Positions 6,114 to 37,702 of a stretch of 64,000 bases of DNA are shown here, one piece after another. Source of the stretch: Eledone cirrhosa (lineage: Eukaryota); contig OZ024741.1 of NCBI GenBank assembly GCA_964016885.1, positions 82,212,001 through 82,276,000 of the forward strand. The letters are read 5' to 3'. The number at the start of each line of letters is the position of its first letter. Position 1 is the stretch's first letter. A model generated the notes under the pieces. That model was given only the letters and a program-made list of their open reading frames with translations. It did not search any database and was not told the origin of the DNA. The translations under genes and the position numbers were made by a program.

Positions 6114-6317
6114 TAGGAAAATGTTTAGCACCGACGGCAGAGCTCAAGCCGTTTCGACGGCTATTTCTCGACTGAAATAGAGCAGAAATAGCCGTCGAAA
6201 CGGCTTGAGCTCTGCCGTCGTGGTTAAACATTTTCCTATTACCCAATCAACTACCCTAATATTGAGTACTCTGGTGCGTTATGGTCCATCTGGTTCCTTA
6301 CCACGCTTCCTTCGTTA
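6114..6317 (+). mobile_element. PLE-derived mini hairpin element with tail, between (TA)n tracts
   Basis: 6114-6238 is a near-perfect palindrome, followed by a 79-bp tail. Right arm plus tail is homologous to the PLE 3' end at 25735-25866. Confidence 0.9.
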
Positions 6318-6899
6318 TATATATATGTATATATATATATCACTTAAAAAACATGGGAGACATATAGAAAAAGTAAAGCGAGAAAGAGGCAAACATATGG
6401 ACAATTTCCACTCAAAGCCTATCTTTCTGGGGATCATTATAGTTTCGGATACTTTGTAAGATAGGATTATTCACCACCAGTGGATCAACAGAAAGCACAG
6501 AGTTATCCATAGATATCTATTCGAGAGGAAAACACAACGGACATTGAACGATGAAAAACACAAAACAAAACAAAACAAGAAGTAATATATACTGGTATCG
6601 CACAGTAAAATTGCTACAATCGAAAGCAACACGAATAAGGACTAGTTAACGATAGTATAAATGGAGGAATGGATTAACTTAATACAAGTTAGTTCAAACA
6701 ATAGCCCTAGAACTAATATTAATATAAGAGAGACATGGCGAAGATGAATGACCATGTCTGCAATCAAATCGCAAAAGACTGCGACAAAGGCGTGACAGAG
6801 TAGGGCAGCAGTAAAGTGTGATAGAAGAAATCGTCTACACACATTGCACCTGAATTCTTGGCGGGTTTTCCTTTTGCAGGCACTGCATTTGGATCCCAT

Positions 6900-8200
6900 T
6901 TACGGAGTGAATAATTCAAAGTGGCATGTTACACTCACTTTTTCTCATCAATACTTCATGATCATAACCCATGATGTGAGGAATTCAGTCAAACCCTCCC
7001 AATTCTCTATATCAATCTTCAGAGTTTTTAGAGTGTATCTTATGACATCCCTAAACCGCTTCTTTGCTTTATGTTGTGGCATTTTACCTCTGGTCAGCTT
7101 CTCCTAAAATAACTGTTCAGGAAGCCTTCCATCTTCCATCCTGACAACATGACCAGCCCAACACATTTGGTTACTAATAATCCTCTTCTCAATATTAGTG
7201 CTGCTCGCATTCTCAAGTAAAGCAGCATCAGGTGTGTAAAAATATCACTTGATGCTCAGGATCAGTCGGATACAATGCTGAAGAAATATTTCCAGATACT
7301 TCATATGATGCCTGTACGTTGTAGGCGTTTCACATCTGCATAACAGGGTTGTAGAGACACAGGCCTCATACATATACTCCGATTTGACCAGATTTCCTTC
7401 TTTGGTTTCCAGAAAGCAAGATTCACTTTCTCAATCTTGTGAATTATTTCAGCATCGAGCGTACCATCTCTACTAAGTGTATTTCCGAGATACATAAAGC
7501 TGTCACCACTACAAGTCTTTTTCTTCTCACGAAAATGTCTGGTTCCACATTCACTTCCCCAACTTGTACATAGCCCTTTTCTTTTTTATGCTAATATTTA
7601 GCCCAAATACAGTGCATGTATTTGAGGTGTCTAATATCAATTGTATGTCTTCTGTTGAGTGAGCCACATATCTCCGTGACAAGAATGACATATGTTTTGA
7701 ACTTGATGTGAAAATGTCTTGGATTAAAATCTTTGGCAGAGGTTCTAAATCACAAGTATACACCCATTTCGAAGCTTTGGAAGGCGTGTCAGCAGTACCA
7801 TCAGGTAGATGGCGAAAAGAGTGGGTGCAGATATGTCACCCTACTTCACATCGTTTTCCGTTGACATTGGCTTTGAAAGTGTCCCATTTAAGTTCACTTT
7901 TCCCTTTTTATTTTTATTTGAATATTCCAACAAATTCAGGCAGGCATCAAATGTTCTCCATTATGACTCACACTGTATTAAAAGTTACAGTATCGAAGGT
8001 TTTAGTAAGGTCCACAAATGCTTGGTATAGTGGCACTCGCTGTTCAACACACTTCTCCATAAGCTAGTGTGCTGAGAAAATCATGTCCATAGTAACTCGC
8101 CTAGTTCTGAATCGACATTGGGTCTCATGGAGGACTGCAGTGCAGATGCATTTTGTTGGACGATTCAGCAGGAAAACTTATAAGACTTTCCCTACCAATT
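6900..8200 (-). mobile_element. Degenerate RTE-clade LINE reverse transcriptase relic
   Basis: Minus-strand peptides YLGNTLSRDGTLDAEI..I.K...AF and FGLNISIKK; nearby QCRFRTRRVTMDMIFSA and F.DLTK.FDTV-like remnants; many stops. Confidence 0.75.
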
Positions 8201-8219
8201 TGTGCAGACTTATACAAAG

Positions 8220-9500
8220 ATAACAATGTATTCACATTTAGATTTCTTGCCCTTGTAAATCAATAGCAAAAACCATCACCAAGAAGCGAGGCCTCCAGGA
8301 TATCTGCTCTGCTTGAGCAATTCGTGGTGCAGAATGTGGTACTGACCGTAATCTTATGCGGGGCAAGATGAAAGTGTAAATTAGAGGAAAAGTGAGGACA
8401 ACGAGGGAACAATCTGCAAAGTTTATAAAGGCGCACACTTGATAACGCTGTCTTTGAGGGAAACAGTTTAAAACATAGGTCTACCGTGCTGGATTTGATT
8501 TACTCGGTCTTAAGAAGACACAGCACCAAGACTGTCCGATGATAATGATACTGCAATCACCTTTCTCATTGAAGAGAAGGCGTATGAGAAGAGCCTTGTT
8601 GCAGAGAGTCCACAGAAGGCTCTGTTGAAGGCAAGATAATGGGGACCTTGTCATCAAAGTTCCAGCAGGAATCATGAGTCGGTGGACTGAACACATTAAA
8701 TATCTGTTCGGTAACCCATTTATAGTTGATGAGGAAAATATCAATGGACTTCCATAAAAGGAGACTGTGACAGAGATGATGAATGATCCAGCCATTGTTG
8801 AGATAAGGTCTTCTAATAAAAAGGAATACATATAGAATGATCCTGTTCAGCTGATCCACTTTGGAGGAGACACTATTTTTATGACCATTGATCGGCTAGT
8901 TTTATCTGTCTGGCATAGTGAGCTAGTCCAGCAAGTCTAGGTGGATGCAATTTTTGCTGTCGATACATACCTTCATACATGATTACTACAAATCGATTTC
9001 GAGTAATACCATCGCTTAATACTTAAGCATAAGCATCAGGAATCTGTTTTTTTTTAGTCCAGCTAGGAGCCTGTCCATGACCAGCAATACTAGGCATCAC
9101 AGAAAATGTCACATATCAAGCGATGCCTGTGCTTGAAGCTTTTTAAAGTGAGGAAACGCTTTGCACGAGGCCAATCCAACTCTTTGAACATCAAATGCAT
9201 TTAACCCGCCCACCAAAAAAAAAAAAAATAGGATAGATATGAAGTCACAGGTTTGACCTTCTCCTAAAGAGATGGCTTAATGAAGACTAGGAGTCTCTTG
9301 CTCCAGTAAAAGCTTTATTTCATGGCCGTTAACTCTCCTGAGTTCCTCCATCCTTTGAGGACTTTTGTTCTCATTCCGCAGAGTGTCCAAAATCCCCCTC
9401 TTCAGCAAGCAGGCTTGGTGGGGTTTCCGGTTTAGTCGACTACGACCCGACCAAGCACAAGTTATACTGGATTACATGTTACCTGTAGCGCTGAAGAGCA
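8220..9500. mobile_element. Further LINE (probably RTE) fragments in mixed orientation
   Basis: Plus strand attcgtggtgcagaatgtggtactgaccgtaatctt encodes IRGAECGTDRNL, resembling the APE C-terminal (S/T)DH motif; the rest is too decayed to resolve. Confidence 0.45.
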
Positions 9501-36363: not shown

Positions 36364-36548
36364 TCACAAGAAAAAAGAGAATCAGTGTTGCGACGATTGG
36401 AATTTATTGGACATATTACAATCGTTTCCCTGGCGACCAGCTCGAGGCACGATCGATGTGATGATCGAACCTGATTCTGAAAATCGCAAGGTCTATGAAG
36501 CAGATTTTCCTACCGCATACGGACGCTCTAAGCATCCAACACGAATTA
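36364..36548. mobile_element. Collapsed element of the 34985 family: inverted short arm joined directly to the tail end
   Basis: 36365-36493 matches 35066-35194 in the same orientation; 36509-36548 is the reverse complement of 34985-35022. Confidence 0.78.
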
Positions 36549-36610
36549 TATATATATATATATATATATATATATATATATAGAGAGAGAGAGAGAGAGA
36601 GAGAGAGAGA

Positions 36611-37078
36611 TTTTGAGTTTATGTTGGTTGTAAATCAATACCTCAGTATGCAGGCCTGGAGCACTCGACGAAGTGTGAAGGTTGGTTTGGTTACTCCGGA
36701 GTTGTGTAAAATAAAGTTAAATAAAAGTCAAATTATTAAAATTTAGCTTCGTTTATTGACCATTGCTGTAATTTGGTTTTCTTTCGAGGCTTGGGCAAAA
36801 TCCTATCCAGTATTCTTTTACTGACGATCCCTAGGTCAGATGTGGAGGGGGATATTAGTCTGACAGGGAGGTCGGACTCAAAGTATTGAACTGTACAATA
36901 TTTTGAGTCCCACCTCCCTGTCAGACTAATAGCCCCCTCCAGATCTGACCTAGGGATCGTCAGTAAAAGAATACTGGATAGGATTTTGCCCAAGCTTCGG
37001 AAGAAAACCAAATTACAGCAATGGTCAATAAACGAAACTAAATTTTAATCATTTGACTTTTATTTAACTTTATTTTAT
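36611..37078. mobile_element. ~370-bp palindrome built from a PLE RT fragment, plus ~95-bp tail
   Basis: 36707-37078 folds back with its centre near 36892. Each arm encodes LPVRLI.PS.SDLGIVSKRILDRILPK, the homologue of RLINPTKSDIGRISKKILDRVIPK. Tail contains TCGAGTGCTC on the minus strand. Confidence 0.88.
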
Positions 37079-37200
37079 ATATATATATATATATATATAT
37101 ATATATATATATATATATATATATATATATATATATAAAATAAAGTTAAATAAAAGTCAAATGATTAAAATATATACATATATATATATATATATATATA

Positions 37201-37702
37201 TAACGAATGATATGTGGTAAGGAACCAGGTGGACGATAACGCACCAAAGCACTCAATACTTAGGGTAGTAGAGTGCGTAATAGGAACGAGTAGGACCCCG
37301 ACGGCTGAGCTCAAGCCGTTTCTACGGCTAATTCTGGACTAAATGAACATTTTTATCCTGGTATATGAATAGCCGAGCTTCTCAAGGGGTAATTCCATAT
37401 ATGGTAAAAGTGATTGTCACAAGGATTGGTCAAAAGTTTGCTGTTGAGACATAATAATTCTATCATGCCAATTTGTGGAGGGAAGGTGTAGCTACCCCTT
37501 CCCTCCACAAATTGGCATGATAGAATTATTATGTCTCAACAGCAAACTTTTGACCAATCCTTGTGACAATCACTTTTACCATATATGGAATTACCCCTTG
37601 AGAAGCTCGGCTATTCATATACCAGGATAAAAATGTTCATTTAGTCCAGAATTAGCCGTCGAAACGGCTTGAGCTCAGCCGTCGGGGTCCTACTCGTTCC
37701 TA
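37201..37702 (-). mobile_element. PLE hairpin element: ~210-bp arms, each with a hammerhead, plus 80-bp tail; TA-flanked
   Basis: 37281-37490 and 37492-37702 are inverted copies; homologous to 25650-25866. Confidence 0.92.
37593..37688 (+). ncRNA. Type I hammerhead ribozyme (UUGAGAA core)
   Basis: ACCCC-TTGAGAA-gctCGGCTA...TAGCCGtc-GAA-ACGGC-ttgagctca-GCCGT-C-GGGGT; perfect stems I and III. Confidence 0.82.

What the first reader, a model, noticed from the sequence alone, without database searches (positions are those of the whole stretch)
6114..37702. Hammerhead-bearing mini-hairpins together with a plausible parent element in the same window
Seen: 6114-6317, 35466-35664, 35701-35899, 37201-37702 and the 17205-17259 fragment all match the last 100-220 bp of the open-ORF PLE at 22500-25866. 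Every short arm stops at the same TTCCTA, 19 nt after the predicted hammerhead cut, while the long arm runs ~79 nt further. The fold-back point differs between copies. Inference: these are either extreme truncations or a non-autonomous, MITE-looking class mobilised by PLE RT; transcripts would be long dsRNA hairpins.
Basis: partly seen in the sequence, partly recalled or inferred. Interest (0 to 1): 0.82.

Follow-up and report, generated by a model that had tools for sequence, protein, structure and literature searches.

The report
Abortive two-ended Penelope retrotransposon insertions
These small DNA hairpins are real and occur in tens of thousands of places in this genome, but they are likely one-off stubs left when a Penelope-type jumping gene copies the very start of its RNA into both ends of a cut TA repeat, and their joints likely record where that RNA begins and where its self-cutting ribozyme cuts.

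Summary
The hairpins are real, both outer ends are fixed (79-nt tail), and the genome holds at least 11,652 more. They are the shortest form of the known inverted-copy-plus-tail insertion of Penelope-like elements (PLEs); the source is a Hydra-type PLE with a 3,542-bp unit. They are not a junction-inheriting mini family: the window's junctions are unique (B and C are one local duplicate), and common junctions recur across subfamilies and in mirror form. Most minis hold only half a hammerhead, and the window's long copy is a 5'-truncated cousin, not the parent. New detail: both arms stop at one adenine preceded by an untemplated G (21 of 26 v 34 of 166), the mark of a capped RNA end; a second class stops exactly at the predicted ribozyme cut (61 of 100 listed) with A/T added; 11 copies have non-overlapping arms. 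Best reading: two target ends each prime a cDNA on the sense RNA's 5' leader, both run off its end and are joined head to head. No RNA data were available.

The parts
6116..6314 (+). Copy A: inverted short arm (6116-6176) joined head to head to long arm (6183-6314), in (TA)n; subfamily TAAACATT; junction holds a re-copied piece; half hammerhead only
   Evidence: junction found at 1 locus
35467..35662 (-). Copy B: long arm on minus strand (35467-35608), short arm on plus (35608-35662), in (TA)n; older subfamily with 2-nt insertion (TGAACATT)
   Evidence: junction only here and in C
35702..35897 (-). Copy C: identical tandem duplicate of B (period 235)
37203..37700 (-). Copy D: 498-bp fold-back, arms 206 of 208 identical, fused at a short AGCT palindrome; each arm holds a whole hammerhead sequence
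17195..17257 (+). Fragment E: short-ended arm of an old subfamily (17205-17257), preceded by 10 nt that may be a stub of the inverted long arm
   Evidence: the stub reading is inference
22501..25863 (+). 5'-truncated copy of the Hydra-type PLE (youngest subfamily); no ATG, no 5' UTR, long-type 3' end into (TA)n
22501..24570 (+). Open frame, 689 codons: RT with RWR, DKT, YRDD; CxCx5C linker; GIY-YIG-type endonuclease (IY...YIG), CxxC and CxH
   Evidence: motifs as defined in PMC8557442 section 11
25679..25772 (+). Predicted type I hammerhead: stem I ACCCC/GGGGT, core TTGAGAA (U3-A8 variant) 25684-25690, long stem II, GAAAC 25745-25749, near-palindromic stem III, cut 25767|25768
   Evidence: U3-A8 known from Cercyon PLEs (PMC4209133)
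25723..25734 (+). Shared inner stop of both arms; edge at A25727 in TTAGTC, preceded in copies by an untemplated G; inferred transcription start
25781..25787 (+). Short-arm end TTCC|TAT; inferred first reverse-transcription start
25785..25863 (+). 79-nt tail, ending TTCG|TTAT; inferred second reverse-transcription start; in source copies followed by a 95-nt 5' UTR and the ATG

Best explanation
The hairpins are head-to-head pairs of two short pieces of one Hydra-type Penelope-like element, and each was likely made anew when both ends of a cut (TA)n target primed reverse transcription on the element's sense RNA at two fixed sites 79 nt apart. Shown: the anatomy, the fixed ends, the copy numbers, the junction spectrum. 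Inferred: the RNA starts at A25727 in the upstream pseudo-LTR, so the two start sites lie only about 58 and 137 nt from its capped 5' end; when the enzyme primes on this 5' copy both cDNAs run off the end (often adding C opposite the cap) and are joined with 0-2 nt of microhomology or a few added bases. On RNA already cut by the hammerhead the same process gives a smaller class whose arms stop at the cut with A/T added. On longer (tandem read-through or circular) RNA the arms run further and may fuse at any small palindrome (stem III, or AGCT as in D). The minis are likely mostly dead ends.
For: 207 of 221 head-to-head pairs are one short plus one long end. 11 of those pairs have arms with no shared sequence, so neither copied the other. 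PLE protein nicks and extends both strands and starts at two internal sites that define the tail (PMC11167929). Starts pile up at 25727-25728 (55 short, 73 long arms of 192) against 6 and 8 at 25726; in untargeted DNA 26 of 33 short arms and 20 of 33 long arms start in the zone. Base before A25727 in junctions with inserts: G in 21 of 26, against 34 of 166 elsewhere (p 3e-9); genome-wide G-AGTCC 5,420 v A-AGTCC 890. An untemplated G is read as a cap mark in L1 (PMC9341517); Penelope's RNA starts in the upstream pLTR (PMC2377424). Cut-site class: of 100 listed of 182 hits in the youngest subfamily, 61 have both arms ending at G25768 (32 with an insert, 29 blunt), 26 are short on one side, 8 run past the cut, 5 ambiguous; first added base A/T in 30 of 32 (counted by eye; contrast with the cap site p 7e-9). 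Junction recurrence across subfamilies and mirror parity 9 v 9. Arms of one copy are closer than arms permuted within a subfamily (2.62 v 3.17 +/- 0.04). 526 tail-to-5'UTR junctions and 3.53-3.54-kb tandem arrays exist as sources.
Against: No RNA reads: the start site, the cap and the cut are read from DNA only. The 29 blunt cut-site junctions can also be explained by a 2-nt CG microhomology, and the cut lies at the foot of stem III, where an enzyme could stall. About 13 of 30 inspected G-AGTCC hits could take their G from the partner arm (by eye). Many arms start at 25729-25734 without G, and 13 of 39 arms starting at G25728 carry an unexplained GC. In vitro the Anolis element used uncleaved RNA and no reads began at its ribozyme cut. 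9 of 58 long copies carry a C3/A8 mismatched core. A few pairs may mix subfamilies (L187, L055). The junction sample was chosen by patterns, 50 loci by a mis-set pattern that favoured copies with indels.
Confidence: 0.72

Rival explanations
1. Same two-ended priming, but the inner stops are stalls at RNA structure (the apical hairpin of stem II and the foot of stem III) or at bound protein, not true RNA ends.
For: The zone 25723-25731 is the 3' strand of a predicted hairpin and the cut site abuts stem III; starts spread over 12 nt; some cDNAs resume elsewhere after the zone (L151/L261).
Against: The edge falls in the middle of a weak A/U-rich helix; the added base is G at A25727 but A/T at G25768, which a stall does not predict; terminal re-copies and jumps are expected at a template end.
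Confidence: 0.13
2. A hidden non-autonomous family: mini loci (or short start-to-5'UTR units) are transcribed from the internal start site and re-seed new minis in trans, the junction being rebuilt each time.
For: Minis outnumber tail-to-UTR junctions at least 20 to 1; small tandem units of start site to 5' UTR exist (L262/L263, L266, L268, L269, L271); non-autonomous PLEs are known (MRC1, PMC8557442 section 10); the TGAACATT subfamily had 10 minis and 0 full long arms in one tally.
Against: The modal mini haplotype (20 of 167) is identical to 8 of 37 long copies and its 34 near neighbours are star-like; the 15 commonest mini variants all occur in long copies; in Anolis the protein needs about 54 nt 3' of the last start site, which minis would lack if this element is alike (inference).
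Confidence: 0.1
3. Snap-back or self-priming: one cDNA (or an antisense template, as proposed for rotifer Penelopes) folds back and copies itself.
For: Proposed in PMC3846280; arms are near-identical and many junctions are symmetric, including D and about 57 of 100 listed stem III fusions.
Against: 11 pairs have non-overlapping arms; both arms independently carry the sense-RNA end marks; asymmetric long pairs exist (L061, L069, L137); it does not explain two fixed outer ends. It may still account for some symmetric copies.
Confidence: 0.04
4. A MITE-like family that moves as a unit and inherits its junction (DNA cut-and-paste or retrocopy of the whole hairpin transcript).
For: Inverted arms, about 200 bp, very high copy number; some junctions recur.
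Against: Arms are not terminal repeats (79-nt overhang); window junctions are single-locus; recurrent junctions cross up to five subfamilies; 0 of 21 pairs share an arm asymmetry; no A-to-G excess (7 of 266 substitutions) as edited hairpin templates would leave.
Confidence: 0.01

Closest known systems
Hydra clade of endonuclease-bearing PLEs (Craig et al. 2021, PMC8557442; sections 10, 11, 15, passages and supplement part 2 read)
   Same: RW[K/R], DKT, CxCx5C linker, C-terminal GIY-YIG without CCHH, (TA)n target, 3' hammerhead, partial tandems, inverted 5'-truncated copy with one-sided tail.
   Different: Unit 3,542 bp against under 3.1 kb for listed families; tail 79 nt against 30-40; core TTGANAA with long stems II and III against CTGANGA with 1-3-nt loop III; tens of thousands of insertions made of the two arms alone.
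Poseidon of Anolis in vitro (Frangieh et al. 2024, PMC11167929; main text parts 1-2 read)
   Same: Both strands nicked and extended; two internal start sites whose distance is the tail; both lie 3' of the hammerhead cut.
   Different: There the starts lie in the ORF and were called non-homologous to the target; here they lie before the 5' UTR and each is followed by TAT, matching the (TA)n primer. There no trace of ribozyme cutting in vivo; here a class of insertions ends at the cut.
Cercyon PLE minimal hammerheads of Schistosoma (Cervera and de la Pena 2014, PMC4209133; parts 1-2 read)
   Same: U3-A8 core variant; pairs of motifs 100-700 bp apart on opposite strands; palindromic stem III.
   Different: Those were not resolved as insertions with fixed ends; here stem III is long enough to fold as a monomer.
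Adineta vaga Penelopes (Arkhipova et al. 2013, PMC3846280; passages and Discussion read)
   Same: Head-to-head inverted pLTR, one-sided tail, palindromes at the junction, initiator-like motif in the pLTR.
   Different: They proposed self-priming on an antisense template; the junctions here point to two primings on sense RNA.
Animal non-LTR retrozymes (PMC7229834, listing only; bioRxiv 10.64898/2026.07.22.740005, abstract and passages)
   Same: Non-coding, hammerhead-related, tied to PLE pLTRs.
   Different: Retrozymes are tandem monomers each with a whole ribozyme; these minis are single head-to-head pairs and mostly lack half the core.

Membership tests
Hydra-clade PLE (source element) | RWK-type N-terminal motif and DKT in place of DKG | tested here: met
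   RWR and SDKT in the window frame; RW[RK] and DKT conserved in homologues (definition)
Hydra-clade PLE (source element) | CxCx5C linker, C-terminal GIY-YIG, CxxC and CxH, no CCHH | tested here: met
   CNCPDRSIC, VIY...YIG, CNLC, CKH; Pfam gave no hit for this frame
Hydra-clade PLE (source element) | (TA)n target | tested here: met
   TA run within 14 nt on the left in 170 and on the right in 159 of 189 minis
Hydra-clade PLE (source element) | Placement in the Hydra clade on an RT tree with named references | not tested
   The 120 listed homologues carry no clade names; no tree built
EN+ PLE insertion structure | Inverted 5'-truncated copy, one-sided tail, partial tandems | tested here: met
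   207 of 221 pairs short+long; tandem arrays; tail 79 nt, longer than the published 30-40
Type I hammerhead (long copies) | Three-way junction with core (C/U)UGAN(G/A)A, GAAA and NUH | tested here: met
   Unconstrained fold gives the junction (z-score 1.03, so not unusually stable); TTGANAA in 44 of 58 copies with N free; Rfam hammerhead models gave no hit
Type I hammerhead (long copies) | Self-cleavage | not testable with these tools
   Only the indirect genomic edge at G25768
Type I hammerhead (minis A, B, C, E) | Both halves of the core | tested here: not met
   Arms begin at or after 25723; the 5' core is at 25684-25690
MITE | Terminal inverted repeats and a uniform inherited interior | tested here: not met
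   79-nt overhang; 131 junction cores in 192 copies
MITE | Fixed-length target duplication | tested here: inconclusive
   (TA)n hides it; 6 of 189 flanks share a repeat of 14 nt or more, one (L023) convincing
Retrozyme | Tandem monomers, each with an intact ribozyme | tested here: not met
   Minis are single head-to-head pairs with half cores
Non-autonomous PLE family | Own lineage, separate from ORF-bearing copies | tested here: inconclusive
   No mini-only clade seen in 167 minis v 37 long copies; sample is under 2% of copies

The most novel reading that the evidence does not exclude
This genome holds a fossil record, tens of thousands of events deep, showing that a PLE primes both target ends on sense RNA, that its RNA has a capped start inside the hammerhead, and that a U3-A8 PLE hammerhead cuts in the germ line; and short capped leader RNAs from mini or small tandem loci feed the same reaction, making a SINE-like class whose palindromic DNA form is rebuilt at every insertion.
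Probability: 0.15. Interest if true: 0.8.

Novelty: new variant of a known kind. Interest (0 to 1): 0.56.

Why it matters
How PLEs build their inverted ends and whether their hammerheads cut in vivo are stated open questions (PMC8557442 section 15; PMC4209133; PMC3846280; PMC11167929). These stubs give base-exact predictions: RNA start at A25727, cut at 25767|25768, priming at C25784 and G25863 through TAT matches to the target. Each can be tested by 5' end mapping or with purified protein. They also warn annotators: tens of thousands of MITE-looking hairpins can be retrotransposon by-products, and they are a possible large source of double-stranded RNA in introns.

Tried and rejected
Rfam: no hammerhead family hit; only microRNA models on simple repeats and hairpins. 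Pfam: no family for the source frame. DNA search of G000 returned nothing because common words are skipped; patterns were used instead. No RNA holder listed, so expression, editing and small RNAs are untested; no reads were laid. One search used a mis-set gap and found only 66 indel-bearing copies; repeated. Scripts with errors: (length range; redone in 70), the core count in 70, the ambiguity flag in 80 (counted by eye), a meaningless binomial line in 86 (not used); one row each in alignments 69 and 81 was on the wrong strand, so no pair counts were made. Splice-acceptor reading of TTTAG/TCCAG rejected: arms keep the AG and no common upstream exon or leader is attached. Post-insertion collapse of long palindromes rejected as the main source: it would not add a G or give lone arms and internal jumps the same stop. 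Whole tandem arrays could not be fetched, so their outer ends were not read. Literature searches found no paper describing cap-G or cut-site junctions in PLE insertions; subscription papers are not covered, and bioRxiv supplements were not seen.
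Full report
Observation. Alignment to the long copy confirms all five pieces: A 6116-6314, B 35467-35662, C 35702-35897, D 37203-37700, E 17205-17257. Short arms end at parent C25784, long arms at G25863, a 79-nt overhang. B and C are identical and form one tandem duplication of period 235. A, B, C and E begin downstream of the 5' half of the hammerhead core and cannot be ribozymes; A and B fold as hairpins of about 55-60 bp (-97 to -107 kcal/mol) and D as a 208-bp duplex (-412).

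The source element. The frame 22501-24570 has the motifs that PMC8557442 (section 11) gives for the Hydra clade: RWR, DKT, CxCx5C, a C-terminal GIY-YIG with CxxC and CxH; 767 homologues were found, the listed 120 without clade names. Elsewhere in G000 the tail runs on into a 95-nt 5' UTR and an ATG; this junction occurs 526 times and in arrays of period 3,528-3,546 bp, one of them 3,542 (from coordinates). The window copy lacks that UTR and 28 codons, and it belongs to the youngest subfamily, while A to E are 81-93% identical to it: a cousin, not the parent. Its 3' end folds unconstrained into a type I hammerhead junction (z 1.03). The core is TTGANAA in 44 of 58 long copies, N free (G 24, T 10, A 9, C 1); 9 have CTGAGAA. 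The U3-A8 variant is known from Cercyon PLEs (PMC4209133).

Copy number. A 22-mer has 54,367 exact hits. An exact pattern for hairpins with a spacer up to 34 nt gives 11,652, a lower bound. In 1.09 Mb of untargeted DNA there were 33 head-to-head pairs, 18 of them minis, and 41 lone arms, which extrapolates to about 50,000 minis (29,000-79,000); 696 kb of that DNA flanks targeted copies and may be enriched, and the 390 kb drawn by round coordinates held 7 pairs, 3 of them minis.

Outer ends. Of 528 arms, 473 end at 25785-25787 or 25861-25863 (the alignment runs into the TA); the rest include alignment artefacts. Of 221 pairs, 207 join one short to one long end, 7 short to intermediate, 4 long-long, 3 short-short. 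Both sites are followed by TAT in the source, a match to a (TA)n primer. This is the known PLE pattern of an inverted truncated copy with a one-sided tail (PMC8557442), and the tail has been shown in vitro to be the distance between two internal start sites used on both target strands (PMC11167929).

Exact junction patterns give one locus for A, only B and C for B, and three loci folding near D's point, each with a different junction around an AGCT palindrome. In the sample (195 minis; 2 without anchors and duplicate C dropped, 192 left; chosen mostly by the patterns) there are 131 junction cores, 108 seen once; the two commonest are mirror images, 9 each, spread over five or more subfamilies. 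None of 21 same-subfamily, same-junction pairs shares an arm-to-arm difference, and A-to-G changes are 7 of 266. The modal long-arm haplotype of minis (20 of 167) equals that of 8 of 37 long copies. So junctions are made afresh. This does not exclude short RNAs from mini loci as templates, since the junction would be rebuilt each time.

Two cDNAs, not a snap-back. In 11 of the 26 asymmetric pairs the short arm ends at 25787 or before and the long arm starts at 25803 or after, so the arms share no sequence. Arms of one copy are more alike than arms permuted within a subfamily (2.62 v 3.17, none of 5,000 permutations; 176 of 192 copies parsed), which fits one RNA or one source; L187 and L055 may be mixed pairs. 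This speaks against self-priming on an antisense template (PMC3846280) as the general route.

The first inner stop. Arm starts peak at 25727-25728 with a sharp upstream edge (short arms 26 and 29 against 6 at 25726; long arms 32 and 41 against 8) and trail to 25734. The base before A25727, in junctions that hold inserted bases, is G in 21 of 26, against 34 of 166 at other starts (p 3e-9); the source has T or C there. Genome-wide, G-AGTCC outnumbers A-AGTCC 5,420 to 890; by eye about 17 of 30 such G's cannot come from the partner arm. The site reads TTAGTC or TCAGTC, like an initiator (consensus recalled, not tested). An untemplated G is taken as the mark of a copied cap in L1 (PMC9341517, passages), and Penelope's transcript starts in its upstream pLTR from an internal promoter (PMC2377424, part 1 and passages). 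Several loci show a cDNA reaching this point, jumping to a spot in the 5' UTR or ORF and reaching it again (L261, L262, L266, L268, L269, L271), as expected at a template end. I infer that this is the RNA's capped start. Against: no RNA data, many starts a few bases downstream, and an unexplained GC before G25728 in 13 of 39 cases.

The second inner stop. Two sampled copies had both arms ending at the predicted cut. A genome search gave 1,070 hits; of the 100 listed, 29 end at the cut on both arms and about 57 fuse across the near-palindromic stem III (by eye). A pattern open on both sides of the cut, for the youngest subfamily, gave 182 hits; of 100 listed (two loci counted twice), 61 end exactly at G25768 on both arms, 26 are short on one side, 8 run past it, 5 are ambiguous. 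The first added base is A or T in 30 of 32, so G-type in 2 of 32 against 21 of 26 at the first stop. Eleven such loci read in full are intact insertions in (TA)n with a 17-nt short arm. The simplest reading is an uncapped, ribozyme-cut template; a stall at the foot of stem III and CG microhomology for the 29 blunt cases are the caveats. In Anolis no such trace was found.

Model. The protein nicks both strands of (TA)n; each 3' end pairs with a TAT in the RNA, at 25785 and 25865, and is extended. Because the start site lies just upstream, priming on the 5' copy of these sites yields cDNAs of about 58 and 137 nt that run off the end and are joined head to head. Priming on the next unit of a tandem transcript yields long copies. 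Shown: structure, ends, counts, junction statistics. Inferred: priming chemistry, cap, cleavage, joining. If, as in Anolis, the protein needs RNA 3' of the last start site, minis are dead ends.

Verdict. A real, very abundant, but derivative feature: a new variant of a known PLE insertion structure, whose value is mechanistic. Earlier scan notes describe the two-armed pattern in this and other genomes; a word search for the cap and cut-site evidence returned nothing. The host was not identified. Interest 0.56.

Noticed in passing
L262/L263 (G000:C1 about 27,009,400-27,010,200); also L266, L268, L269, L271: Small tandem units of 200-260 bp running from the inferred start site through the tail into the 5' UTR (one past the ATG) and jumping back to the start site; three units in L262. 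Possible seeds of a non-autonomous PLE or retrozyme-like unit without a whole ribozyme.
   Followed up: partly
parent 25728 equivalent, many loci (e.g. L040, L054, L060, L184): 13 of 39 arms that start at G25728 carry GC in place of TA before it, in several subfamilies; may be misreading of a modified cap-adjacent adenosine or a minor source variant.
   Followed up: no
L010, L059, L152, L286: 9 of 58 long copies have CTGAGAA (C3 opposite A8), a mismatch expected to weaken the ribozyme, concentrated in two subfamilies.
   Followed up: partly
window 25747-25766: Stem III of the hammerhead is almost a perfect palindrome, so two RNAs could pair through it; about 57 of 100 listed ultra-short hairpins fuse across it.
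   Followed up: partly
window 27676-27837: An unrelated fold-back in (TA)n with about 40-bp arms and a one-sided extension of about 75 nt: probably the same structure from another family; its end also flanks L014.
   Followed up: no
window 36707-37077: A 370-bp palindrome (arms 185 nt, 95% complementary) just left of copy D, not related to this family.
   Followed up: no
window 60106-62020 (+), 39038-40235 (+), 19238-19777 (-): Further Hydra-like PLE frames, broken; 60106-61548 is 40% identical to the source protein.
   Followed up: partly
window 56534-57742 (-), 30291-31942 (-): Other PLE-like reverse transcriptase frames with Pfam RVT_1 hits.
   Followed up: no
window 14484-17357 (-), 40920-44574 (-), 46527-51492 (+): Long LINE-like open frames, two with upstream ORF1-like frames.
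   Followed up: no
L023: A mini flanked on both sides by the same 40-50-bp stretch of TA plus unique sequence: a possible long target duplication.
   Followed up: no
L187, L055: Pairs whose two arms carry diagnostic bases of different subfamilies; would imply two RNAs, or two insertions.
   Followed up: no
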